From: Flavobacterium sp.
Lineage (GTDB): Bacteria; Bacteroidota; Bacteroidia; Flavobacteriales; Flavobacteriaceae
Assembly: GCF_039916025.1 (NCBI RefSeq)
Contig: NZ_JBDSMB010000065.1
Coordinates: 2,135-66,134, forward strand
Length of the DNA stretch: 64,000 nt
Direction of reading: 5' to 3'
The notes below the pieces were generated by a model. That model did no database searches. It saw only the letters and a list, made by a program, of their open reading frames with translations, and had not been told where the DNA came from. Below are positions 2,024 to 61,602 of the stretch, in pieces (positions within the stretch are counted from its first letter, which is position 1; every line of letters begins with the position of its first letter). Both the position numbers and the translations under genes were made by a program.

Positions 2024-2124
2024 TAGCCCAGATTGACGCGACATCCTTTATTTTTAGGATTGGCCTTTGTGCCAACAAAGGCCAATCCTAAAAATAAAGA
2101 TATAGCAGAAAGCTGGAAATAGCT
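2024..2124. repeat. Intergenic REP-like element with a perfect 25-bp inner hairpin
   Basis: Stem 2046-2070/2075-2099 with 4-nt loop; flanks TAGCCCAGAT..ATCCTTT and AAAGAT..AGCTGGAAATAGCT are homologous to the reverse complement of 52927-53003. Confidence 0.8.
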
Positions 2125-11188: not shown

Positions 11189-11204
11189 GCAGCAAAGGTA
11201 AAGC

Positions 11205-11232
11205 CAATTACGAATTATGAATTATGAATTAC
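11205..11232. repeat. Heptamer tandem array AATTA(C/T)G x4
   Basis: caattacgaattatgaattatgaattac. Confidence 0.8.
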
Positions 11233-11294
11233 AAAATAAAATTTGAAATCTCGCCAAACGCCTCTTGTTTGAATGTATTATATAATTTATTTAC

Positions 11295-12038: not shown

Positions 12039-12947
12039 ATGCATCTTATTCAAAATTTCATCTCAGGAAAACGCAAATACCTGTTTGGGTTGATATTCCT
12101 TTCGTTTGTGTGTATGATCTGTGCGGCTTTCACTATGGAAGATAGTGACGGATTTGACTTTGCCAAAAGGGAAGTTTTAATCCGCAGCATCGGACACGAA
12201 CTACTTTTACAGTCGGGCGATAGCACATCAAGAGTGCTTCCGGTAAAAAAGATTGCAGCCAATGAATATCAAATCAGCTTTGAGAATGAGCTTACTTTTC
12301 AACCGAAATTGCTAATGAATACAACAAGGCGTTTGTTGTCCAAAGACCCGCTCGCACGAGATTATGTTGTTAACGTTCTGAACTGTGATGACTCAAGTAT
12401 AGCCTATGGATATGCCGTATCCAAAAATAAAAAAGATGATGTTGTAACCTGTATAGGAAGAAGACAACCCAAAGCCTGTTACATAATTAACATTAAATTC
12501 AAACCGACAGGAACAACTACAGCAAAAAATGGATATCTTTTGGGCAGCCTCTCATTTTTAGCATTTGCCGGTTTTATTTTTTTGAGATCTGCTAAGCCGC
12601 GAAAAACTTTACCTGACGGTCAACATACTAATATGTTCACTTGGGGATCGGTGTTGTTTGATGCGAAGAATCGTAAACTCATCATAAATGGAGAGACAAT
12701 AGACCTGACCGGAACAGAAGCACGTGTATTGCTCATTTTCGCATTGTCTCCCAATGTTACCATAGAGAGAAGCCGACTGCAAAAAGAGATTTGGGAAGAT
12801 GAGGGTGTTATTGTGGGACGAAGTCTGGATATGTTCATATCTAAACTTAGAAAAAAATTAGAAGTAAATCCCAATATCAAAATTGTTGTGATACGCGGAA
12901 AAGGATACAAACTTGAAATTACACCCGTACAGGCAATTACGAATTAA
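12039..12947 (+). CDS. Membrane-anchored regulator with C-terminal OmpR/PhoB-type winged helix
   Basis: Two hydrophobic segments flank a soluble domain; C-terminal RSLDMFISKLRKKL..IVVIRGKGYKL. Confidence 0.85.
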   Translation: MHLIQNFISGKRKYLFGLIFLSFVCMICAAFTMEDSDGFDFAKREVLIRSIGHELLLQSGDSTSRVLPVKKIAANEYQISFENELTFQPKLLMNTTRRLLSKDPLARDYVVNVLNCDDSSIAYGYAVSKNKKDDVVTCIGRRQPKACYIINIKFKPTGTTTAKNGYLLGSLSFLAFAGFIFLRSAKPRKTLPDGQHTNMFTWGSVLFDAKNRKLIINGETIDLTGTEARVLLIFALSPNVTIERSRLQKEIWEDEGVIVGRSLDMFISKLRKKLEVNPNIKIVVIRGKGYKLEITPVQAITN

Positions 12948-12975
12948 AAATTACGAATTACGAATTAGGAATTAA
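12934..12975. repeat. Heptamer tandem array AATTACG x6 (degenerate)
   Basis: caattacgaattaaaaattacgaattacgaattaggaattaa; same orientation as 11205-11232. Confidence 0.8.
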
Positions 12976-12976
12976 A

Positions 12977-19369: not shown

Positions 19370-19458
19370 CTTCGACAGGCTCAGTGTGACAGTTAAGTGC
19401 GATTGTGTTTTCCAGTATTACAATTAAAAAGATAAATGTCAGTCTGAGCCTGTCGAAG
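19370..19458. repeat. REP-like inverted repeat element
   Basis: CTTCGACAGGCTCAGTGTGACA / TGTCAGTCTGAGCCTGTCGAAG, 20/22 complementary, 45-nt spacer. Confidence 0.85.
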
Positions 19459-20093: not shown

Positions 20094-20735
20094 ATGATTA
20101 TTAATAAAGACACAGCCGAAAAAACAGCCGAATTGCTTTTACAAATAAATGCAATTAAATTGAATCCAAAAAATCCTTTTACGTGGGCATCGGGTTGGAA
20201 TTCTCCAATTTACTGCGACAACCGACTCATACTGTCTTTCCCGGCGATAAGAAATTTTGTACGCGAAGAATTTTCTAAACGTATTGAGAAAGAATTTGGA
20301 AAACCCGACGTTATAGCAGGCGTTGCAACTGGAGCAATTGGCATCGGAATGCTCGTTGCCGAATACATGGGATTGCCTTTTGTATATGTTCGCCCGGAAC
20401 CAAAAAAACATGGTAGACAAAACCAGGTGGAAGGCTTTTTGCAAAAAGGGCAAAACGTAGTTGTTGTCGAAGATTTAATCAGTACCGGAAACAGTAGTCT
20501 GATAGCTGTTGAAGCCCTGAAAGAAGCCGGAGCACATGTTAAAGGAATGGTAGCGATTTTTACTTATGGCTTTGATGTTGCTATAGAGAATTTCAAAAAA
20601 GCGAATGTTGATTTGCATACATTAGCCGATTACAATAATTTATTAGAATTGGCTGTTGCCAAAAATTACATTACTGAAAAAGAACTCAAAACATTGCAGG
20701 AATGGCGTGAAAGTCCATCGACATGGAGTGTGTAA
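20094..20735 (+). CDS. pyrE: Orotate phosphoribosyltransferase
   Basis: SPIYCDNR, GVATGAI, RPEPKKHG and VVVVEDLISTG motifs. Confidence 0.97.
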   Translation: MIINKDTAEKTAELLLQINAIKLNPKNPFTWASGWNSPIYCDNRLILSFPAIRNFVREEFSKRIEKEFGKPDVIAGVATGAIGIGMLVAEYMGLPFVYVRPEPKKHGRQNQVEGFLQKGQNVVVVEDLISTGNSSLIAVEALKEAGAHVKGMVAIFTYGFDVAIENFKKANVDLHTLADYNNLLELAVAKNYITEKELKTLQEWRESPSTWSV

Positions 20736-20739
20736 AAAA

Positions 20740-20828
20740 AGAACATAGAATATAGAACAAAGAACATAGAAGAAAAAGTAAGTATTAATAACTTATCTAT
20801 TTTCTATATTCTATTCTCTATTTTCTCT
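20740..20828. repeat. Heptamer inverted-arm element (AGAACAT family)
   Basis: Left arm AGAACAT AGAATAT AGAACAA AGAACAT; right arm tctattttctatattctattctctattttct. Confidence 0.85.
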
Positions 20829-21233: not shown

Positions 21234-21252
21234 AATTCGTAATTCGTAATTA
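21234..21252. repeat. AATTACG heptamer array, reverse orientation
   Basis: aattcgtaattcgtaatta. Confidence 0.65.
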
Positions 21253-31390: not shown

Positions 31391-31620
31391 TTTTTTATTT
31401 TTCTTAAAGGTAAGCCTTTTGAAAAGTAAATACTGTTTTTTGTGTTAACATTGTGACGCTTCATAAAAAAGTACAGAAAGAACAAGAAGAAAATCGAATA
31501 AAGCATCATCATCAGTTATATAATTTACGAATGGATATATTATAAACCCTATGTGGAATTATATAAACCTACTTCTCCACCAAAAAAGGTAACCCATCAT
31601 AAATAAAAATTTAACATAAA

Positions 31621-31656
31621 TACTATGCGTGCATAATAAAAATTTTGTATCTTTGA
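31621..31656 (+). promoter_or_regulatory. Putative MarR operator and -7 element of the beta-oxidation operon
   Basis: Palindrome TATGC-GT-GCATA (31624-35); TATCTTTG (31649-56). Confidence 0.6.
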
Positions 31657-31674
31657 ACTTCTTATAGTAAAGAT

Positions 31675-32106
31675 ATGAAAGATAAAACTATAGATTATAT
31701 ACTCCGCGCTACCTGGCAGGCAGTGTCCAGAATGTACAACGAAGAAGCGTCCAAATTTGAAGGTTCAATGGCAATTGGTTTTGCATTGTTAAGCATCGAT
31801 CGTGAAGAAGGAACGCCTTCAACAGCCATAAGCATGAGAATGGGAATGGAACCTACAAGTCTCACACGAACATTAAAAACTCTGGAAGAAAAAGGGTTAA
31901 TATACCGCAAAAAGAATCCCGATGATGGTCGTGGCGTCCTAATATACCTCACCGATTTGGGTAAACAAATGAGGGAACAGTCTAAAATTACCGTTTTGAA
32001 ATTCAACGAAATTGTAAGGCAAAATATCTCCGATGAAAAGTTACAACACTTTATCGAGGTTTCCGAGATTATTAATGAATTGATTACGGAGAAGAAGATT
32101 TTTTAA
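31675..32106 (+). CDS. MarR-family regulator heading the beta-oxidation operon
   Basis: EPTSLTRTLKTLEEKG..DGRGVLIYLT. Confidence 0.9.
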   Translation: MKDKTIDYILRATWQAVSRMYNEEASKFEGSMAIGFALLSIDREEGTPSTAISMRMGMEPTSLTRTLKTLEEKGLIYRKKNPDDGRGVLIYLTDLGKQMREQSKITVLKFNEIVRQNISDEKLQHFIEVSEIINELITEKKIF

Positions 32107-32111
32107 AGGCT

Positions 32112-32223
32112 ATTTTAAATTTTTAATTATAAATTTTAAATGATTTTATAATTAAAATAGAAAGACTTACTAACAACACACGACTAATTTAAAATTCAAA
32201 ATTTATAATTTAAAATAATTTAA
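32112..32223. repeat. Heptamer inverted-arm element, empty (TTATAAA/TTTTAAA family)
   Basis: Left arm attttaaatttttaattataaattttaaat; right arm atttaaaattcaaaatttataatttaaaat. Confidence 0.75.
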
Positions 32224-34614
32224 ATGAAGAGGATAATTAAAAAAGTGGCAGTAGTTGGCTCAGGAATTATGGGCTCAGGAATTGCTTGTCATTTTGCTAA
32301 CATTGGCTTGGAAGTTTTGCTTTTGGATATCGTTCCAAATGAACTTACTGAAATTGAAACCAAAAAAGAATTGACATTAGAAAGTAAAGCCGTTCGCAAC
32401 CGATTGGTAAACGACCATTTAGCCAATGCTTTAAAATCTAACCCATCTCCTATTTACAGCCAGAAGTTTGCCTCCAGAATCACAACTGGAAACACAACCG
32501 ATGATATGGCTAAGATTACCAACTACGATTGGATTATCGAAGTCGTGGTGGAACGCTTAGATATCAAGAAATTGGTTTTCGAACAAATTGACAAATTCAG
32601 AAAACCGGGAACTTTAGTCACTTCAAATACTTCCGGGATTCCAATTCATTTTATGAGCGAAGGACGAAGTGAAGATTTCCAGAAGCATTTCTGCGGAACC
32701 CATTTCTTTAATCCAGCACGTTATTTAAAATTATTCGAAATCATTCCAGGGCCACAAACTTCCCAGGAAGTTTTGGATTTCCTGTTTGATTATGGTTCAA
32801 AATATTTAGGCAAAACTTCGGTCATTGCCAAAGACACTCCGGCTTTTATCGGAAACAGAATCGGAATTTTCGGAATCCAGAGTTTATTCCATTTGGTAAA
32901 AGAAATGGGACTAACAATCGAGGAAGTTGATAAGTTAACCGGACCAGTTATTGGCCGTCCAAAATCGGCTACGTTCAGAACCGTTGATGTTGTTGGTCTG
33001 GATACTTTAGTTCATGTAGCCAATGGTTTATATGAAGGTGTGCCAAATGACGAAGCGCATGACTTATTTAAACTTCCGGATTTCATCAATAAAATGTTGG
33101 AAAACAAATGGCTGGGAAGCAAAACGGGACAAGGTTTCTACAAAAAAGTAGACAAAGACATCTTGTCTTTAGATTTGGATACGATGGAATATCGTCCGGC
33201 AAAGAAAGCTTCTTTCGCTACTTTGGAATTGACAAAAACCATTGATAAACCTATTGACCGATTCAGGGTTTTAGTAAAAGGAAAAGACAAAGCGGGTGAT
33301 TTCTACAGAAAAAATTTCTCTGCGATGTTTGCTTATGTTTCGAATCGTGTTCCCGAAATCACAGATGATTTCTATAAAATCGACGATGCGATGAAAGCTG
33401 GTTTTGGATGGGAAAACGGACCATTTGAAATTTGGGATGCCATTGGAGTTCAGAAAGGTATCGAATTGATGGAAGCAGAAGGTTTAAAACCGGCAGCATG
33501 GGTTCGTGAAATGATAGCTTCAGATACAACCAGTTTCTATAGTATAAAAGAAGGAAATACCTATTATTATAATATTCCAACAAAATCACAAGTTAAAGTT
33601 CCGGGACAAGACAGTTTCATCATCCTGAACAACATCCGCGAAAGCAAAAAAGTTTGGAGCAACAGTGGTGTCATCATTGAAGATTTGGGTGACGGAATCT
33701 TAAACTTAGAATTCCAATCCAAAATGAACACGATTGGTGGTGATGTTTTAGTCGGAATCAATAAAGCAATCGACCTTGCCGAAAAAGAATACAACGGACT
33801 GGTAATCGGAAATCAGGGAGCGAATTTCTCTGTCGGTGCCAATATCGGAATGATATTTATGATGGCAGTCGAACAGGAATATGAAGAACTGAATATGGCA
33901 ATCAAAATGTTTCAGGATACAATGATGCGCGTTCGTTATTCATCAATTCCTGTTATTGTTGCGCCTCACGGAATGACATTAGGTGGTGGTTGTGAAATGA
34001 CACTTCACGCAGATAAAGTTGTGGCTGCAGCCGAAAGTTATATTGGTTTAGTTGAGTTTGGTGTCGGAGTAATTCCGGGCGGCGGTGGTTCTAAAGAAAT
34101 GGCATTACGTGCTTCTGATTTGTTCCGTAAAAATGATGTGGAATTAAATGTACTGCAGGAATATTTCTTAGCTGTAGCAATGGCAAAAGTATCAACATCT
34201 GCTTATGAAGCTTTCGATACCGGAATTCTGCAAAAAGGGAAAGATATCATTGTAGTAAATAAAGACAGGCAAATCGCGGAAGCAAAAAAACATGCCTTAT
34301 TAATGGCAGAAGTCGGATACACACAACCAATCAAAAGAACTGATGTAAAAGTCTTGGGAAAACAGGCATTGGGAATGTTCTTAGTCGGAACCGACCAAAT
34401 GGTAGCGGGAAAATACATTTCGGAACACGACCAAAAAATAGCCAACAAACTGGCATACGTAATGGCTGGCGGCGATTTATCAGAACCAACATTCGTATCA
34501 GAACAATACTTGTTAGATCTTGAAAGAGAAGCGTTCCTTTCATTATGTACTGAAAGAAAAACGTTAGAAAGAATACAGTTTATGTTAACTAAAGGGAAAC
34601 CGCTTAGAAATTAG
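32224..34614 (+). CDS. 3-hydroxyacyl-CoA dehydrogenase/enoyl-CoA hydratase (FadN-like)
   Basis: GSGIMGSGIA, EVVVERLDIK, SNTSG, HFFNP and LGGGCE motifs. Confidence 0.93.
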   Translation: MKRIIKKVAVVGSGIMGSGIACHFANIGLEVLLLDIVPNELTEIETKKELTLESKAVRNRLVNDHLANALKSNPSPIYSQKFASRITTGNTTDDMAKITNYDWIIEVVVERLDIKKLVFEQIDKFRKPGTLVTSNTSGIPIHFMSEGRSEDFQKHFCGTHFFNPARYLKLFEIIPGPQTSQEVLDFLFDYGSKYLGKTSVIAKDTPAFIGNRIGIFGIQSLFHLVKEMGLTIEEVDKLTGPVIGRPKSATFRTVDVVGLDTLVHVANGLYEGVPNDEAHDLFKLPDFINKMLENKWLGSKTGQGFYKKVDKDILSLDLDTMEYRPAKKASFATLELTKTIDKPIDRFRVLVKGKDKAGDFYRKNFSAMFAYVSNRVPEITDDFYKIDDAMKAGFGWENGPFEIWDAIGVQKGIELMEAEGLKPAAWVREMIASDTTSFYSIKEGNTYYYNIPTKSQVKVPGQDSFIILNNIRESKKVWSNSGVIIEDLGDGILNLEFQSKMNTIGGDVLVGINKAIDLAEKEYNGLVIGNQGANFSVGANIGMIFMMAVEQEYEELNMAIKMFQDTMMRVRYSSIPVIVAPHGMTLGGGCEMTLHADKVVAAAESYIGLVEFGVGVIPGGGGSKEMALRASDLFRKNDVELNVLQEYFLAVAMAKVSTSAYEAFDTGILQKGKDIIVVNKDRQIAEAKKHALLMAEVGYTQPIKRTDVKVLGKQALGMFLVGTDQMVAGKYISEHDQKIANKLAYVMAGGDLSEPTFVSEQYLLDLEREAFLSLCTERKTLERIQFMLTKGKPLRN

Positions 34615-34698
34615 AAATTAGAAAATAGAACATAGAAAAAAGAATATAGACTCGCAACTGCAAAAAGTCTATTCTCTATATTCTATTTTCTATACTCT
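34604..34698. repeat. Heptamer inverted-arm element (AGAACAT family)
   Basis: TTAGAAA x3, ATAGAAC ATAGAAA AAAGAAT ATAGACT, 13-nt loop, AGTCTATTCTCTATATTCTATTTTCTA. Confidence 0.85.
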
Positions 34699-34712
34699 TA
34701 AAAAATAAAAAG

Positions 34713-35894
34713 ATGAAAACAGCATATATAGTAAAAGCATACAGAACAGCCGTCGGAAAAGCACCAAAAGGAGTTTTTCGTTTCAAACGTCCCGACGAAT
34801 TGGCTGCAGAAACCATACAGTTCATGATGAGTGAATTGCCTGATTTCGATAAAACCCGAATCGACGATGTGATGGTTGGAAATGCTATGCCCGAAGCCGA
34901 ACAAGGTTTAAACGTTGCGCGTTTGATTTCGCTAATGGGATTAAAAGTTACCGATGTTCCTGGTGTAACTGTAAATAGATATTGCGCCTCCGGATTGGAA
35001 ACTATTGCAATGGCAACTGCAAAAATCCAAAACGGAATGGCAGATTGCATTATCGCTGGTGGTGCCGAAAGCATGTCTTTCATTCCGATGGGCGGTTACA
35101 AACCAACTCCTGATTACGCCGTCGCGGCCGAAGGTCACGAAGATTACTATTGGGGAATGGGTTTAACTGCAGAAGCGGTCGCCAAACAGTTCAACGTTTC
35201 CCGCGAAGATCAGGATGCATTTGCATTGAATTCGCATCTAAAAGCAATTAAAGCTCAGGCTGAAGGTAAATTTGACAAACAGATTGTCCCGATTACGATT
35301 GAGCAAATTTTTGTCAATGAAAATGGTAAAAAAGAAACCAAATCATATACCGTAACCAAAGATGAAGGTCCAAGAGCTGATACTAACGCTGCGGCTTTAG
35401 CAAAACTAAAACCAGTTTTCGCCGCCGATGGCAGTGTAACTGCTGGGAGCTCTTCACAAATGAGCGATGGTGCTGCTTTTGTTTTAGTCATGAGTGAAGA
35501 CATGGTCAAAGAATTAAACCTCACTCCTATTGCCCGCATGGTCAGCTATGCTGCAGCAGGTGTGGAACCAAGAATCATGGGAATTGGTCCGGTAAAAGCA
35601 ATTCCGAAAGCGTTGGCTCAGGCTGGTTTAAAACTGAATGATATCAACTTAATTGAGCTAAACGAAGCTTTTGCTTCTCAGGCTTTAGCCGTTACAAGAG
35701 AATTGGGATTGAATCCGGATATCGTTAATGTTAATGGTGGCGCAATTGCACTCGGACATCCATTAGGCTGCACCGGAGCAAAACTATCCGTACAGTTATT
35801 TGACGAAATGAAACGCCGTGGCGATAAATATGGGATTGTTTCAATGTGCGTCGGAACAGGACAAGGTGCGGCGGGAATCTATGAGTTATTATAA
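34713..35894 (+). CDS. fadA: Acetyl-CoA C-acyltransferase (thiolase)
   Basis: NRYCASG, NEAFASQ, GGAIALGHPLG and CVGTGQG motifs. Confidence 0.95.
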   Translation: MKTAYIVKAYRTAVGKAPKGVFRFKRPDELAAETIQFMMSELPDFDKTRIDDVMVGNAMPEAEQGLNVARLISLMGLKVTDVPGVTVNRYCASGLETIAMATAKIQNGMADCIIAGGAESMSFIPMGGYKPTPDYAVAAEGHEDYYWGMGLTAEAVAKQFNVSREDQDAFALNSHLKAIKAQAEGKFDKQIVPITIEQIFVNENGKKETKSYTVTKDEGPRADTNAAALAKLKPVFAADGSVTAGSSSQMSDGAAFVLVMSEDMVKELNLTPIARMVSYAAAGVEPRIMGIGPVKAIPKALAQAGLKLNDINLIELNEAFASQALAVTRELGLNPDIVNVNGGAIALGHPLGCTGAKLSVQLFDEMKRRGDKYGIVSMCVGTGQGAAGIYELL

Positions 35895-35915
35895 ATTTTG
35901 AATTATAAATTATAA
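35889..35915. repeat. Left heptamer arm of the four-helix-bundle module
   Basis: TTATAAA TTTTGAA TTATAAA TTATAA directly abuts the ATG. Confidence 0.75.
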
Positions 35916-36263
35916 ATGAAAGACAATCTGATAGCAATAAAAACATTTGATTTTTCTTTGATGATAATCGGATTGTTCATTCAATTAAAAAAGGAAAACG
36001 AGTTTATTGTATCTAAACAATTACTAAGATGTGGGACAAGTATCGGTGCGAATGTAGAAGAAGCCATTGCTGCACAATCAAAAAAAGATTTTATAAATAA
36101 ACTTTCAATAGCTAATAAAGAAGCGAGAGAAACTAAATACTGGTTAAGATTATTGGATAAATCTGAATTGACAAAAATTGGATTAGAGAATTATCTAATA
36201 GAAATAGAACACATAATAAACATCATTACCAAGATTATTAAAACATCACAAGAATCAAAATAA
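35916..36263 (+). CDS. Four helix bundle protein (23S rRNA IVP/Avd-like family)
   Basis: KQLLRCGTSIGANVEEA..SKKDFINKLSIANKEARETKYWLRLL. Confidence 0.92.
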   Translation: MKDNLIAIKTFDFSLMIIGLFIQLKKENEFIVSKQLLRCGTSIGANVEEAIAAQSKKDFINKLSIANKEARETKYWLRLLDKSELTKIGLENYLIEIEHIINIITKIIKTSQESK

Positions 36264-36292
36264 TTTAAAAATTATAATTCAAAATTTAAAAT
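36262..36292. repeat. Right heptamer arm of the four-helix-bundle module
   Basis: aatttaaaaattataattcaaaatttaaaat; inverted relative to the left arm. Confidence 0.75.
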
Positions 36293-36301
36293 AACAATAC
36301 A

Positions 36302-38092
36302 ATGGAAGATATAACAAGAGGTGGACAGTTTTTGGTAAAGGAAACCAAATGTGAAAATGTATTCACTCCGGAAGACTTTAGCGAAGAGCAAATCATGATG
36401 CGCGATTCTGTAAAAGAATTCGTTGACAAAGAAATCTGGCCAAACAAAAATCGGTTTGAAGCCAAAGATTACGCTTTCACAGAAGAAGTAATGAAGAAAG
36501 CCGGAGACATGGGATTCCTTAGCGTTGGTGTTCCTGAAGCTTATGGCGGAATGGGAATGGGATTCGTCGATACGTGTTTGGTTTGCGATTATATTTCAGG
36601 TGCAACCGGTTCGTTTTCTACCGCTTTTGGCGCTCATACCGGAATTGGGACGATGCCTATTACGTTATACGGAACCGAAGAACAAAAACAAAAATATGTG
36701 CCAAAATTAGCTACCGGCGAATGGTTTGGTGCCTATTGCTTAACCGAACCGGGTGCAGGTTCTGATGCCAACTCAGGAAAAACCAAAGCAGTTTTGTCTG
36801 CAGATGGGAAATATTATAGCATTACAGGAGGAAAAATGTGGATTTCAAACGCAGGTTTCTGTTCCTTATTTATCGTGTTTGCCCGAATCGAAGATGATAA
36901 AAACATTACAGGTTTTATTGTAGAAAATGATCCAGCTAATGGAATCACAATGAATGAAGAAGAGCATAAATTGGGAATCCGTGCTTCCTCTACACGTCAG
37001 GTTTTCTTTAATGATACAAAAGTTCCGGTTGAAAATATGCTTGCCGGTCGTGGCGAAGGTTTCAAAATTGCCATGAATGCTTTGAATGTTGGCCGTATCA
37101 AACTGGCTGCGGCTTGTCTTGATGCACAACGTCGTGTGACTACAAATGCTGTTCATTATGCAAACGAAAGAATCCAGTTTAATGTCCCAATTTCAAGCTT
37201 TGGTGCGATTCGTTACAAACTGGCGGAAATGGCAACTTCAGCGTATGCCGGAGAAAGCGCAACCTATCGCGCTGCTAAAGACATTGAAACGCGTATTAAA
37301 CTTCGTGAAGCAGAAGGCGCCTCACATCAGGAAGCTGAATTAAAAGGTGTCGAAGAATTCGCTATCGAATGTTCAATTCTAAAAGTAGCAGTTTCTGAAG
37401 ATGTTCAAAATGCTGCCGATGAAGGAATACAAATCTATGGCGGAATGGGATTCTCTGAAGATACTCCGATGGAAAGCGCCTGGCGTGATGCCCGTATTGC
37501 CCGTATTTATGAAGGAACGAACGAAATCAACAGAATGCTATCGGTTGGAATGCTAATCAAAAAAGCGATGAAAGGTCATATTGATTTACTTGGCCCGGCA
37601 TCAAAAGTTCAGGAAGAATTAATGGGAATTCCATCATTCGATACTCCGGATTATTCTGAATTATTTTCGGAAGAAAAAGAACTAATTGGCAAACTGAAAA
37701 AAGCATTCTTAATGGTTGCTGGTGGTGCCGTTCAAAAATATGGACCGGATTTAGACGCACATCAGCAATTATTAACAGCTGCAGCCGATATTTTAATTGA
37801 AATATACATGGCTGAAAGCACTCTTCTACGTACTGAGAAATTAGCCAAAAAAGCTGGAGAAGATAATGTTAAAGAGCAAATCGCTATGGCGAAATTATAC
37901 TTATACAAAGCAGTAGATGTAGTAACCCAAAAAGGAAAAGAAAGTATTATTTCTTTTGCCGAAGGCGATGAACAACGCATGATGCTTATGGGATTGCGTC
38001 GTTTTACAAAATACACCAACATGCCTAATATTGTGGGATTGAGAGAAACAATCACAACAAAATTAGTTGCGAAAAATAGTTATTGTTTTTAG
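36302..38092 (+). CDS. Acyl-CoA dehydrogenase
   Basis: YCLTEPGAGSDA, GGKMWISN, QIYGGMGF and RIYEGTNEINR motifs. Confidence 0.95.
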   Translation: MEDITRGGQFLVKETKCENVFTPEDFSEEQIMMRDSVKEFVDKEIWPNKNRFEAKDYAFTEEVMKKAGDMGFLSVGVPEAYGGMGMGFVDTCLVCDYISGATGSFSTAFGAHTGIGTMPITLYGTEEQKQKYVPKLATGEWFGAYCLTEPGAGSDANSGKTKAVLSADGKYYSITGGKMWISNAGFCSLFIVFARIEDDKNITGFIVENDPANGITMNEEEHKLGIRASSTRQVFFNDTKVPVENMLAGRGEGFKIAMNALNVGRIKLAAACLDAQRRVTTNAVHYANERIQFNVPISSFGAIRYKLAEMATSAYAGESATYRAAKDIETRIKLREAEGASHQEAELKGVEEFAIECSILKVAVSEDVQNAADEGIQIYGGMGFSEDTPMESAWRDARIARIYEGTNEINRMLSVGMLIKKAMKGHIDLLGPASKVQEELMGIPSFDTPDYSELFSEEKELIGKLKKAFLMVAGGAVQKYGPDLDAHQQLLTAAADILIEIYMAESTLLRTEKLAKKAGEDNVKEQIAMAKLYLYKAVDVVTQKGKESIISFAEGDEQRMMLMGLRRFTKYTNMPNIVGLRETITTKLVAKNSYCF

Positions 38093-53587: not shown

Positions 53588-53646
53588 AATTTCTATTATT
53601 TTTAATCTGAACTTATTTCAGGTTCTTTTATTAATATTCTATTTTT

Positions 53647-53684
53647 CTAATTACTAATTACTAGTCACTAATTACTAGTCACTA
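53647..53684. repeat. Heptamer tandem array (single arm)
   Basis: CTAATTA CTAATTA CTAGTCA CTAATTA CTAGTCA CTA. Confidence 0.8.
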
Positions 53685-61502: not shown

Positions 61503-61602
61503 AAATTTCAATGTCAAATTTCAAATTTCAAATTTCAATATCAAAAATCAAAGTCAATAGTTTTTATTTTTATTGATTTTTGAGATTGCAATTGTTATTG
61601 AA
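61503..61602. repeat. Inverted-arm element with 6-7 nt period (AAATTTC/TTGA)
   Basis: aaatttc x3 plus variants; opposing arm tattgatttttgagattg. Confidence 0.7.

What the first reader, a model, noticed from the sequence alone, without database searches (positions are those of the whole stretch)
32112..36292. Four-helix-bundle gene inside heptamer inverted arms, with an empty copy of the arms in the same operon
Seen: the gene at 35916-36263 is bracketed exactly by inverted 7-nt-period arms; the left arm includes the fadA stop and abuts the ATG, and the right arm begins at its own stop. The reverse complement of the right arm differs at only 2 of 30 nt from the left arm at 32112, where the arms enclose about 44 nt and no gene. 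Known: this protein family includes proteins encoded in 23S rRNA intervening sequences and is related to DGR Avd. Inference: a module that exists in filled and empty forms and may be excised or processed as an mRNA intervening sequence, or be mobile at DNA level.
Basis: partly seen in the sequence, partly recalled or inferred. Interest (0 to 1): 0.7.

Follow-up and report, generated by a model that had tools for sequence, protein, structure and literature searches.

The report
Heptamer-armed four-helix-bundle operon cassette
A small gene of the family known from ribosomal-RNA intervening sequences sits between two fatty-acid genes of a Flavobacterium, bracketed by inverted arrays of 7-base repeats that also occur many times without the gene; the same anatomy recurs in cyanobacteria and in 23S rRNA intervening sequences, which points to an unrecognised class of insertion element in operons.

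Summary
The window is a Flavobacterium marR-fadN-fadA-X-fadE operon. X (35916-36263) is a PF05635/TIGR02436 four-helix-bundle (4HB, "S23p") gene enclosed by 33-nt inverted arms of 7-nt period. A gene-less copy of the arms lies at marR-fadN.

The pattern is general:
- In 160 related loci, about 140 4HB genes sit in the three junctions of this operon, all co-oriented with it.
- 88% have complementary flanks and 76% have heptamer-period flanks. Each protein subfamily has its own heptamer.
- Junctions also occur bare, as gene-less hairpins, or with decayed genes.
- In the source metagenome the arms are 15-40 times single-copy depth, while the gene is single copy.
- Cyanobacterial 4HB genes (inside cas, par and RNR operons), an Azospirillum 23S rRNA intervening sequence (IVS), the published Coxiella IVS and Xanthomonas XCC0516 show the same short-repeat arrays.

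Best reading: an IVS-type cassette living in mRNA operons, whose arms form a stem that RNase III probably cuts. Cutting is shown only for the rRNA relatives. DNA-level spread of gene-less copies and binding of the arrays by the pentameric protein remain open. I found no paper making this link.

The parts
31675..32106 (+). marR-family regulator, first gene of the operon
   Evidence: PF01047 MarR 3.2e-14
32111..32147 (.). Left arm of the gene-less hairpin (TAAATTT-type heptamers: TATTTTA AATTTTT AATTATA AATTTTA AATGATT)
   Evidence: 2 of 30 mismatches to the reverse complement of 36263-36292. Depth about 780 against 19.2 single-copy in run X1.
32148..32184 (.). Loop of the gene-less hairpin; no ORF
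   Evidence: Single-copy depth of 19.2 in X1, so the loop is unique while the arms are repeated.
32185..32221 (.). Right arm of the gene-less hairpin; ends 2 nt before the fadN ATG
   Evidence: Depth about 337 against 19.2 in X1.
32224..34614 (+). fadN-like 3-hydroxyacyl-CoA dehydrogenase / enoyl-CoA hydratase
   Evidence: PF02737, PF00725, PF00378
34605..34698 (.). Gene-less hairpin of a second heptamer type (TAGAAAA... / ...TCTATTT). It starts over the fadN stop and ends 14 nt before the fadA ATG.
   Evidence: RNA fold -23.1 kcal/mol, z -4.5. The arm type is the one that flanks MRHNYKNLKIW-type 4HB genes in other species.
34713..35894 (+). fadA thiolase; its stop codon lies inside the left arm of the cassette
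   Evidence: PF00108/PF02803
35885..35917 (+). Left arm of the filled cassette (GTTATTA TAAATTT TGAATTA TAAATTA TAAATGA). It contains the fadA stop and the 4HB start codon.
35916..36263 (+). Four-helix-bundle (S23p / 23S_rRNA_IVP) gene, 115 aa, carrying the family motif RxxxSxxxNxxE (residues 38-49)
   Evidence: PF05635 9.7e-22 and TIGR02436 1.2e-27. PDB 2RLD 3.6e-25. Motif found. dN/dS 0.04-0.17 against orthologs. Single-copy depth.
36263..36295 (+). Right arm of the filled cassette; ends 6 nt before the fadE ATG. About 90% identical in F. columnare and other species although dS is saturated.
36302..38092 (+). fadE acyl-CoA dehydrogenase
   Evidence: PF02771, PF02770, PF00441, PF21263
20735..20828 (.). 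Another gene-less hairpin of the TAGAA-type, between a phosphoribosyltransferase gene and the next ORF
   Evidence: (z -3.0)

Best explanation
The 4HB gene and its two arms form one unit: an intervening-sequence-type cassette that lives in the spacers between cistrons of an operon instead of in 23S rRNA.

Anatomy (shown): a purine/A-rich array of about 4 heptamers that swallows the upstream stop codon and abuts the ATG, then a 115-aa S23p-family ORF, then the complementary array that ends a few bases before the next start codon.

Expression (inferred): the unit has no room for a promoter of its own here, so it is transcribed with the fad operon.

RNA stem (inferred from the rRNA relatives): in the transcript the two arrays pair into a stem of about 30 bp that closes off the ORF. 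In 23S rRNA intervening sequences with the same ORF and the same heptamer arms, that stem is the RNase III substrate. The likeliest consequence here is RNase III cleavage, which would cut the 4HB segment out of the polycistronic RNA and separate the fadN-fadA and fadE parts.

Gene-less copies (partly shown): these are the same stem with a short loop. They would act as plain processing or stability hairpins at other junctions. They are multi-copy in the same genome, so the arm module multiplies at the DNA level.

Protein (shown to be under selection, function inferred): each 4HB subfamily keeps its own heptamer sequence, conserved well beyond neutral expectation. The arrays are therefore probably read in a sequence-specific way, most simply by the pentameric 4HB protein itself.
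For: Anatomy in the window. The minimum-free-energy fold of 35880-36301 pairs the arms around the ORF.

Generality in Flavobacterium:
- 57 4HB genes lie in the three junctions of this operon in 80 genomes, and none in about 460 kb of flanks.
- 83 of 84 metagenomic relatives lie in the same operon, all co-oriented.
- Own left/right duplex energy has a median of -32 kcal/mol, against -12.5 for shuffled flanks. 88% reach z < -3.
- 76% of flanks have period 7/14/21, against 7% of controls.

Arms track the protein:
- Arm type follows protein subfamily; the nearest arm profile predicts the subfamily in 125 of 126 cases.
- 29 of 46 typed gene-less hairpins match the resident 4HB type, against 12.9 expected by permutation.

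Selection:
- The protein is under purifying selection (dN/dS 0.04-0.17).
- The right arm stays about 90% identical where dS > 1.

States of the junctions: bare, gene-less hairpin, filled and decayed forms all occur.

Copy number: arms are 15-40 times single-copy depth in two samples. At least 5 distinct gene-less copies sit at genome depth, while the ORF is single copy.

Same anatomy in rRNA IVSs:
- Coxiella has a 28-bp terminal stem and 2-3 GACAGAT heptamers before the S23p ATG. RNase III cuts in the stem in vitro, and RACE mapped the excised IVS ends to the middle of that stem (PMC4990558).
- An Azospirillum 23S gene carries an S23p ORF between CAGAGGA/CGGATGA arrays and CTGTCTT/CCGTCTT arrays.

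Other phyla and contexts: cyanobacterial cas6-4HB-cas4, cmr2-4HB-cmr3, parA-4HB-parB and RNR loci, and Gemmatirosa. In Xanthomonas, a 4-unit GGGAATC-type array (GGGAATCGGGAGTGGAGAATCGGGAATC) overlaps the start of XCC0516 (PMC4692102 supplement).
Against: - No RNA data. The source organism has no RNA-seq, and the metatranscriptome contigs were uninformative. Cleavage of the operon transcript is therefore extrapolated from rRNA.
- The AU-only stems of the window copy are weak at 37 C: about -15 kcal/mol for the arm duplex. The gene-less copy at 32104-32226 does not pair its arms in the sense-strand minimum-free-energy fold (z -1.8).
- Arms around genes show no excess of sense-strand G-U pairs over antisense ones. 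Nothing therefore singles out the mRNA strand, and gene-less hairpins even fold better as antisense.
- Cutting an mRNA, unlike an rRNA, leaves fragments that are not held together. A benefit or neutrality for the host is assumed.
- Some relatives have direct or non-complementary arrays (L170, L173). Stem formation is therefore not universal.
Confidence: 0.55

Rival explanations
1. Protein-repeat partnership. The homopentameric 4HB ring binds the tandem heptamers, one subunit per unit, in the way TRAP binds its repeats. The arrays would be its operators on RNA or DNA. The copy next to the gene would give autoregulation, and gene-less copies at other junctions would form a small post-transcriptional regulon. 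The stem would be secondary.
For: - Each subfamily has its own heptamer.
- Arm sequence is conserved where synonymous sites are saturated.
- Within a subfamily, a left arm pairs as well with another species' right arm as with its own: -27.1 against -30.7 kcal/mol, and own beats the median cross-partner in only 18 of 35. The constraint is therefore on sequence, not just on pairing.
- The median array is 3.9 units. The closest solved structures were deposited as 5 chains. S23p of Xanthomonas is a pentameric toroid (PMC4990558 citing Lin 2006).
- One gene goes with many arrays in the window genome. In Xanthomonas, 186 GGGAATC arrays exist and one overlaps the start of XCC0516.
- Direct, non-pairing arrays occur in L170 and L173.
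- The purine-rich array is always upstream on the coding strand.
Against: - There is no binding data at all.
- Subfamily-specific arms are also what simple co-inheritance of a unit would give.
- The proteins are near neutral (median net charge 0 to +4, pI 6.6-9.2), unlike typical nucleic-acid binders.
- The window genome has 3-4 TAGAA-type hairpins, but no matching MRHNY-type ORF was detected at 80% or more nucleotide identity. This test has low sensitivity.
Confidence: 0.3
2. DNA-level mobile element. The arms are terminal inverted repeats of a MITE-like family, and the 4HB-bearing copy is the full-length member. Gene-less copies are internally deleted derivatives spread by transposition or by recombination between arms. 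Any RNA effects are by-products.
For: - Arms are 15-40 times genome depth. At least 5 distinct gene-less copies have different loops and flanks, one of them directly before a probable atpG start.
- Tandem duplicated hairpins occur in L041, L042, L054, L061, L064 and L069.
- Decayed and truncated cassettes occur in L001, L005, L032, L073 and L076.
- Different subfamilies occupy the same junction in species with 95-97% identical FadA.
- The same junctions also attract REP/RAYT and other palindromic elements.
Against: - No transposase or integrase is present in the unit.
- Subfamilies stay at one or two junctions of one operon across genera. This looks like vertical descent plus replacement, not free transposition.
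- No target-site duplication could be recognised in this AT-rich sequence.
- No strain-level insertion or excision was seen. The nearest genomes are only about 80-85% identical in DNA.
- The 4HB gene is under strong purifying selection.
Confidence: 0.3
3. Nothing special. Heptamer arrays are slippage-prone simple repeats and terminator-like hairpins that accumulate in AT-rich spacers, and the 4HB gene is an ordinary small gene that happens to lie between two of them.
For: - Heptamer tracts without any 4HB gene occur elsewhere in the window (11200, 12934, 21234, 53644, 61503) and in flanks of other loci.
- Heptamers are the most over-represented long simple sequence repeat in many bacteria (Mrazek 2007, as cited in PMC4679880 and PMC4692102).
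- Array length varies by slippage (L067, L045, L107).
Against: - 76% of 4HB flanks carry such arrays, against 7% of controls.
- Arm type is subfamily-specific.
- The same anatomy recurs in four phyla and inside 23S rRNA.
- Arm sequence is conserved beyond saturation.
- There were zero chance matches in shuffles.
Confidence: 0.05
4. The gene is the Avd accessory protein of a diversity-generating retroelement (DGR), and the arms are parts of template/variable repeats.
For: The family is homologous to Avd (PMC10053308). There is a weak hit to the Avd model.
Against: - The Avd equivalog model scores 16.3 bits against a cut-off of 80.
- The neighbours are fadA and fadE, not a reverse transcriptase or a target gene.
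- The arms are short periodic arrays, not template/variable (TR/VR) repeats of about 100 nt or more.
Confidence: 0.01

Closest known systems
23S rRNA intervening sequences that carry an S23p ORF (Coxiella burnetii, Leptospira, Brucella, Haemophilus; here also Azospirillum lipoferum plasmid AZO_p2)
   Same: - Same protein family.
- The ORF is enclosed by terminal inverted repeats that form a stem of about 28-33 bp.
- The arm next to the ATG is made of tandem heptamers: GACAGAT in Coxiella, and CAGAGGA/CGGATGA in Azospirillum.
- Copy number of the heptamers varies between strains.
- The ORF is in the sense of the host transcript.
- ORF-less forms exist.
(PMC4990558.)
   Different: - The host RNA here is a polycistronic mRNA (fadA-fadE spacer), not helix 45 or 25 of 23S rRNA.
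- The ORF here is under strong purifying selection, whereas in Coxiella it is decaying and thought untranslated.
- Excision by RNase III is shown there and only inferred here.
- Gene-less copies are dispersed at many junctions of the same genome.
Small palindromic intergenic repeats that are co-transcribed: Neisseria Correia/NEMIS elements (cut by RNase III), REP/BIME, and REPIN-RAYT pairs (from my own knowledge, not checked here)
   Same: - Multi-copy hairpins in operon spacers.
- One protein-coding 'full' copy flanked by the same repeats as many gene-less copies, which is the RAYT/REPIN logic.
- Likely effects on mRNA processing and stability.
   Different: - The arms are internally periodic (7 nt).
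- The associated gene is a 115-aa four-helix bundle with no known catalytic activity, not a tyrosine transposase.
- True RAYT+REP units occur in the same junctions in other species and look quite different.
Unexplained intergenic heptamer repeat families: TAACTGA (Beggiatoaceae, cyanobacteria, some Bacteroidetes; PMC4679880), GGGAATC in Xanthomonas and GGGGA(C/T)T in Nostoc (PMC4692102), and STRR repeats of heterocystous cyanobacteria
   Same: - 2-6 or more tandem heptamers in spacers, ending a few bases before a start codon or overlapping the upstream stop.
- Some occur as inverted pairs.
- Length varies between relatives.
- The taxa are those rich in 4HB paralogs.
- In Xanthomonas campestris one such array overlaps the start of the S23p gene XCC0516.
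   Different: - Those papers treat the arrays alone (as G-quadruplexes, or as sites for S1, Csp or CsrA) and do not mention the 4HB family.
- Most of their arrays are direct, not inverted.
23S_rRNA_IVP genes reported inside cas loci (Zhang and Ye 2014, PMC3936711)
   Same: Same family inserted between cistrons, for example cmr2-IVP-cmr3. I saw cas6-4HB-cas4 and cmr2-4HB-cmr3 with short-repeat arrays on both sides of the gene, inverted in two of the three loci and direct in Pseudanabaena.
   Different: That paper reads them as a CRISPR-linked function. The arms and the non-CRISPR hosts (fad, par, RNR, acc, 23S) suggest a general operon-spacer element instead.
DGR accessory protein Avd
   Same: Homologous four-helix-bundle fold that forms pentamers (PMC10053308).
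   Different: No reverse transcriptase and no template/variable repeats are present. The Avd model scores far below its cut-off.

Membership tests
PF05635 / TIGR02436 four-helix-bundle (S23p, 23S_rRNA_IVP) proteins | Profile match above the curated cut-off | tested here: met
   PF05635 scores 77.6 bits against 33.8. TIGR02436 scores 96.2 bits against 24.
PF05635 / TIGR02436 four-helix-bundle (S23p, 23S_rRNA_IVP) proteins | Conserved motif GxxRxxxSxxxNxxE (PMC3936711) | tested here: met
   RCGTSIGANVEE at residues 38-49.
PF05635 / TIGR02436 four-helix-bundle (S23p, 23S_rRNA_IVP) proteins | Four-helix bundle that assembles into a pentameric ring | not tested
   Sequence match only: 2RLD at 3.6e-25, deposited with 5 chains. 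No model was built.
S23p-bearing intervening sequence (IVS) elements | S23p ORF enclosed by terminal complementary sequences that form a stem | tested here: met
   33-nt arms, 91% complementary. The arms pair in the minimum-free-energy fold of the whole unit.
S23p-bearing intervening sequence (IVS) elements | Tandem heptameric repeats between the 5' end of the element and the ATG | tested here: met
   4.3 copies of period 7 at 35888-35917. Compare Coxiella and Azospirillum.
S23p-bearing intervening sequence (IVS) elements | Located in 23S rRNA (helix 25 or 45) | tested here: not met
   It lies between the fadA and fadE coding genes. There is no rRNA match in 31500-36500.
S23p-bearing intervening sequence (IVS) elements | Excised from the host transcript by RNase III | not testable with these tools
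   No RNA-seq exists for the organism.
MITE/REP-like dispersed palindromic repeats | Many copies of the same inverted arms in spacers of one genome | tested here: met
   Arm depth is 337-780 against 19.2 in X1, and 110-287 against 8.1 in X2. At least 5 distinct gene-less copies lie at genome depth.
MITE/REP-like dispersed palindromic repeats | Target-site duplication and a cognate transposase | tested here: inconclusive
   No transposase is present in the unit. A duplication cannot be judged in AT-only flanks, and the other copies are known only from 30-nt contig ends.
Diversity-generating retroelement (Avd) | Avd equivalog model, plus an adjacent reverse transcriptase and template/variable repeats | tested here: not met
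   NF033474 scores 16.3 bits against 80. The neighbours are thiolase and acyl-CoA dehydrogenase.

The most novel reading that the evidence does not exclude
Four-helix-bundle (S23p) proteins and short-period (mostly heptamer) intergenic repeat arrays are two halves of one widespread system. Each pentameric 4HB paralog would recognise its own heptamer. The gene would travel between a pair of such arrays, and gene-less arrays scattered through operon spacers and rRNA would be its targets. This would give a common explanation for four things: S23p-bearing 23S intervening sequences, cyanobacterial STRR-type repeats, the Xanthomonas GGGAATC and Nostoc GGGGAYT arrays, and the '23S_rRNA_IVP genes in cas loci'.
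Probability: 0.3. Interest if true: 0.9.

Novelty: new variant of a known kind. Interest (0 to 1): 0.8.

Why it matters
The S23p/four-helix-bundle family is very large: about 8000 relatives were scored for this one query, which was the scoring cap. It has solved structures, and it has had no function since the early 1990s. Intergenic heptamer arrays in cyanobacteria, Xanthomonas and sulfur bacteria are likewise a long-standing unexplained feature.

The link found here has three consequences:
- It turns the rRNA intervening sequence from an oddity of ribosomal genes into one habitat of a general operon-spacer element.
- It offers a concrete partner, protein or repeat, for each of the two orphan features.
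- It makes both questions testable with simple experiments: RNA-end mapping with and without RNase III, and binding of a 4HB protein to cognate and non-cognate arrays.

It also matters for annotation. 4HB genes found inside cas, fad, acc, par or RNR operons should not be read as functional members of those pathways. The arms may set the relative expression of the flanking cistrons.

Tried and rejected
- **RNA evidence.** The window sequence occurs only in DNA metagenomes. Metatranscriptome contigs laid on L042 came from mixed strains with other cassettes. They showed only that one RNA contig runs from a right arm into fadE.
- **Strand test for RNA-level selection.** Sense and antisense duplex energies and G-U counts show no difference around genes (p = 0.54). 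The result is opposite to expectation for gene-less hairpins. My first version of this test was biased and is discarded.
- **Compensatory co-evolution of the two arms within a subfamily.** Own and cross pairing are about equal. This argues for sequence conservation rather than covariation.
- **Recombination footprint next to the cassette in the closest genomes.** None is visible. These genomes are only 75-90% identical in DNA, so the test has little power.
- **'Stops in all three frames' as the reason for period 7.** This is true for the TAG/TAA-containing units but not for AAGAAGC, so it is not general.
- **Cognate MRHNY-type gene for the window's TAGAA hairpins.** A search of the source metagenome found none at 80% or more nucleotide identity. 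Sensitivity was too low to conclude.
- **Rfam.** No family matched; there were only sub-threshold miRNA-like hairpin hits.
- **First flank analysis.** Using 70-nt flanks missed arms that lie more than 70 nt from the ATG. It was replaced by whole-junction analysis.

Full report
**What is in the window.**
The region is a Flavobacterium beta-oxidation operon in a 35% G+C genome. The nearest genomes are Flavobacterium MAGs with 97% identical FadA. The genes are:
- marR, 31675-32106
- a fadN-like dehydrogenase/hydratase, 32224-34614
- fadA thiolase, 34713-35894
- a 115-aa ORF, 35916-36263
- fadE acyl-CoA dehydrogenase, 36302-38092

The small ORF is a clear member of PF05635 and TIGR02436. It carries the family motif RxxxSxxxNxxE and matches PDB 2RLD at 3.6e-25. 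It is the only such gene in the 64 kb.

- The arms 35885-35917 and 36263-36295 are 33 nt and 91% complementary.
- The arms 32111-32141 and 32187-32217 are 31 nt and 87% complementary, with a 45-nt loop and no ORF.
- The right arm of the filled copy and the left arm of the empty copy differ at 2 of 30 positions.
- No shuffle of the window gave a single match to the arm.
- All four arms have period 7.
- The fadA stop lies inside the left arm, the ATG overlaps its end, and the right arm begins at the stop of the small ORF.
- The minimum-free-energy fold of the whole unit pairs the two arms around the ORF.
- A third hairpin with a different heptamer (TAGAAAA/TCTATTT) fills the fadN-fadA spacer. 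One more of that type lies at 20735-20828.

**The same operon in 80 Flavobacterium genomes.**
I fetched the operon with FadA as query. The three spacers vary from 3 nt to about 1 kb, in a multimodal way:
- bare junctions, such as taaACTatg;
- gene-less hairpins of 80-190 nt built from heptamer arrays;
- junctions of 430-600 nt that almost always hold one ORF of about 116 aa on the operon strand.

An HMM built from these ORFs finds 57 4HB genes in the three junctions and none in about 460 kb of flanking DNA.

The non-coding left and right parts of the junction are complementary far beyond shuffles. Median duplex energy is -32 against -12.5 kcal/mol, and 52 of 59 reach z < -3. 207 of 272 flanks have a best tandem array of period 7, 14 or 21, against 18 of 272 random chunks. 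The median array is 3.9 units long.

Truncated genes and arm pairs around non-coding remnants also occur (L001, L005, L032, L073, L076).

**Arms go with the protein subfamily.**
- MKDNLIA-type (the window's): TAAATTT/TGAATTT
- MKHNFKNLKIW-type: AAGAAGC
- MRHNYKNLKIW-type: ATAGAAT
- MHNFEKLKIW-type: GTATTAA
- MNYFKELKVW-type: TTGTATA
- FKRHNFK-type: GATAGAC
- further pairs in other genera

The nearest arm profile predicts the subfamily in 125 of 126 cases. Some shared coding flank contributes to that figure. Gene-less hairpins in the same operon are of the resident gene's type in 29 of 46 cases, against 12.9 expected (the sample is not phylogenetically independent).

**The genes are residents, not free transposons.**
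The closest relatives of the window protein, in F. columnare and in Flavobacterium sp. 123, lie at the same fadA-fadE junction with the same arms. F. columnare has the gene-less copy at fadN-fadA instead of marR-fadN. Of 84 metagenomic relatives of the MKHNF type, 83 are again in this operon, all co-oriented. Yet species with 95-97% identical FadA carry different subfamilies at one junction. Cassettes are therefore replaced over time.

**Selection.**
The window-type protein has dN/dS of 0.04-0.17 while dS is saturated. Even so, the right arm TTTAAAATTTATAATTCAAAATTTAAAATAA is about 90% identical across these species. Within a subfamily, a left arm pairs with another species' right arm about as well as with its own. 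The arm sequence, not merely its complementarity, is therefore conserved.

**Copy number in the source genome.**
Two DNA metagenome runs hold the window at single-copy depths of 19.2 and 8.1. On the arms the depth rises to 337-780 and 110-287. The loop and the 4HB ORF stay single copy. At least five other gene-less hairpins, with the same arms but different loops and flanks, are assembled at genome depth in both runs. One of them ends directly at an ATG followed by GCAAACTTAAAGGAAATACG (MANLKEIRNRI). From memory, that is the start of ATP synthase gamma. The result is one gene and many cognate hairpins.

**Beyond Flavobacterium.**
A tblastn search of the plasmid collection found cyanobacterial, alphaproteobacterial and Gemmatimonadota homologs. 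Their flanks are as follows:
- Nostoc edaphicum: (TAGGGAG)x8 on the left and (TCCCTAC)x5 on the right; the gene lies antisense between ribonucleotide-reductase genes.
- Anabaena sp. 90: (CAGGTGA/CAGGGAA)n and (CTGTCAC)x4, between cas6 and cas4.
- Geminocystis: (AAGGGAA)n and (TTCCCTT)n, between parA and parB.
- Picosynechococcus: GGAGATA and TCTCCTA arrays, between cmr2 and cmr3.
- Leptolyngbya and Stanieria: similar inverted arrays.
- Gemmatirosa: the same design with period 8.
- Pseudanabaena: direct heptamer arrays on both sides.
- Nostoc PCC 7120: non-complementary heptamer tracts.
- Azospirillum: the hit lies inside a 23S rRNA gene (Rfam LSU, 1686 bits) and is an IVS. Its S23p ORF lies between CAGAGGA CGGATGA CAGAGGA CGGAGGA and CCGTCCT CTGTCTT CTGTCAT CCGTCTT.

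In every case the purine-rich array is upstream on the coding strand.

**Literature.**
- The Coxiella IVS paper describes a 28-bp terminal stem and two or three tandem GACAGAT heptamers just before the S23p ATG, with strain-to-strain copy variation. RNase III cut the stem in vitro, and RACE mapped the ends of the excised IVS to the middle of that stem (PMC4990558).
- Zhang and Ye found 18 genes of this family inside cas loci (PMC3936711).
- Rehm et al. list 186 GGGAATC arrays in Xanthomonas campestris. Row 15 of their table places a 4-unit array of that family (GGGAATCGGGAGTGGAGAATCGGGAATC) 6 nt after bccP and overlapping the start of XCC0516, the S23p whose structure is 2GSC (PMC4692102 supplement).
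- MacGregor describes TAACTGA arrays ending 1 nt before start codons (PMC4679880).
- None of these papers connects the arrays with the protein family, and my searches found no paper that does. Subscription journals are not covered.

**Interpretation.**

*Shown:*
- The gene plus its arms is a unit.
- The unit has bare, gene-less, filled and decayed states.
- The anatomy equals that of S23p-bearing 23S IVSs.
- Arms are subfamily-specific and conserved.
- Gene-less copies are multi-copy in the genome.

*Inferred:*
- The unit is co-transcribed with the operon. There are only 21 nt and 38 nt of spacer, all of it arm.
- The arms pair in the RNA.
- RNase III cuts the stem, as it does in rRNA.

*Open:*
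- Whether the protein reads the arrays. For: sequence conservation, about 4 units against a pentamer, and one gene to many arrays. Against: near-neutral charge and no binding data.
- How copies spread at the DNA level.

The G-U strand test gave no support for selection on the sense RNA specifically. The AU-only stems of the window copy are weak at 37 C.

**Verdict.**
This is a real feature, confirmed at the stated coordinates. It is best filed as a new variant of the IVS kind of element, living in mRNA operons. There is a plausible further claim, at about 0.3, that 4HB proteins and intergenic heptamer arrays form a general protein-repeat system.

Noticed in passing
L023, L049, L062, L072 (fadN-fadA junction): An IS200-like/RAYT-like Y1 transposase ORF (MANTYSQIYIQIVF...PDHVHIL) is flanked by GC-rich REP-type hairpins (AGCTCCGTAGGAGCGACCTGTT). 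It occupies the same junction that holds 4HB cassettes in other species.
   Followed up: no
L017, L037, L050, L069, L077, and 13 loci at fadA-fadE (e.g. L005, L009, L018, L026, L043): Two other palindromic element families fill these operon junctions. One is GCCCCCTAACCCCCAAAGGGGGAA...TTCCCCCTTCGGGGGTTAGGGGGC. The other is TTTGTCATTCCGACGAAGGAGGAATC...GATTCCTCCTTCGTCGGAATGACAA. The junctions are general landing sites for hairpin elements.
   Followed up: no
window 11200-11242, 12934-12976, 21234-21251, 53644-53679, 61503-61552: Single (unpaired) heptamer tracts of other sequence (AATTATG, AATTACG, AATTCGT, CTAATTA, AAATTTC) lie at gene ends. One overlaps the stop of a response-regulator gene, and one lies in the kdpB-kdpC spacer.
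   Followed up: partly
window 34596-34712, and 41 gene-less hairpins in L001-L080: Gene-less heptamer hairpins fold more stably as antisense RNA than as sense RNA (35 of 41; -31.9 against -23.1 kcal/mol in the window). Arms around 4HB genes show no such bias. This is unexplained, and the sample is not independent.
   Followed up: partly
L025, L031, L035, L041, L053, L057, L058, L136, L141-L146 (between left arm and ATG): Many MKHNF/MRHNY cassettes carry an extra 100 nt or so, with a conserved segment AAAGTAGTAAAAAACTTACTTTTAATTTTTCTTCTTATCTTGCCTCAAAAAAC just before the ATG. It holds a small hairpin and a TAnnTTG-like motif, so it may be the cassette's own promoter.
   Followed up: no
L170, L171 (cas6-4HB-cas4), L177 (cmr2-4HB-cmr3), L174 (parA-4HB-parB), L169 (between RNR genes, antisense): Cyanobacterial 4HB genes sit inside unrelated operons, including CRISPR-Cas operons. 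They had been read in the literature as a CRISPR-linked function.
   Followed up: partly
window 2046-2099 and 19370-19458: There is a perfect 25-nt palindrome with a 4-nt loop after the ORF at 1349-2023. There is also a 26-nt inverted repeat (CTTCGACAGGCTCAGTGTGACAG type) whose relative appears in the marR-fadN spacer of L020.
   Followed up: no
L051 5001-6002; L031 5442-5996: A 333-aa ORF and a 184-aa ORF, neither related to 4HB, occupy the fadN-fadA junction with 2-4-nt spacers and no arms. The 333-aa one looks PDDEXK/DUF1016-like by eye.
   Followed up: no
L020 2672-2891; L047 8151-8261: Very long heptamer arrays lie outside the operon: about 30 units of GGAAGTT/GGAAGAT, and about 16 units of CCAATAC.
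   Followed up: no
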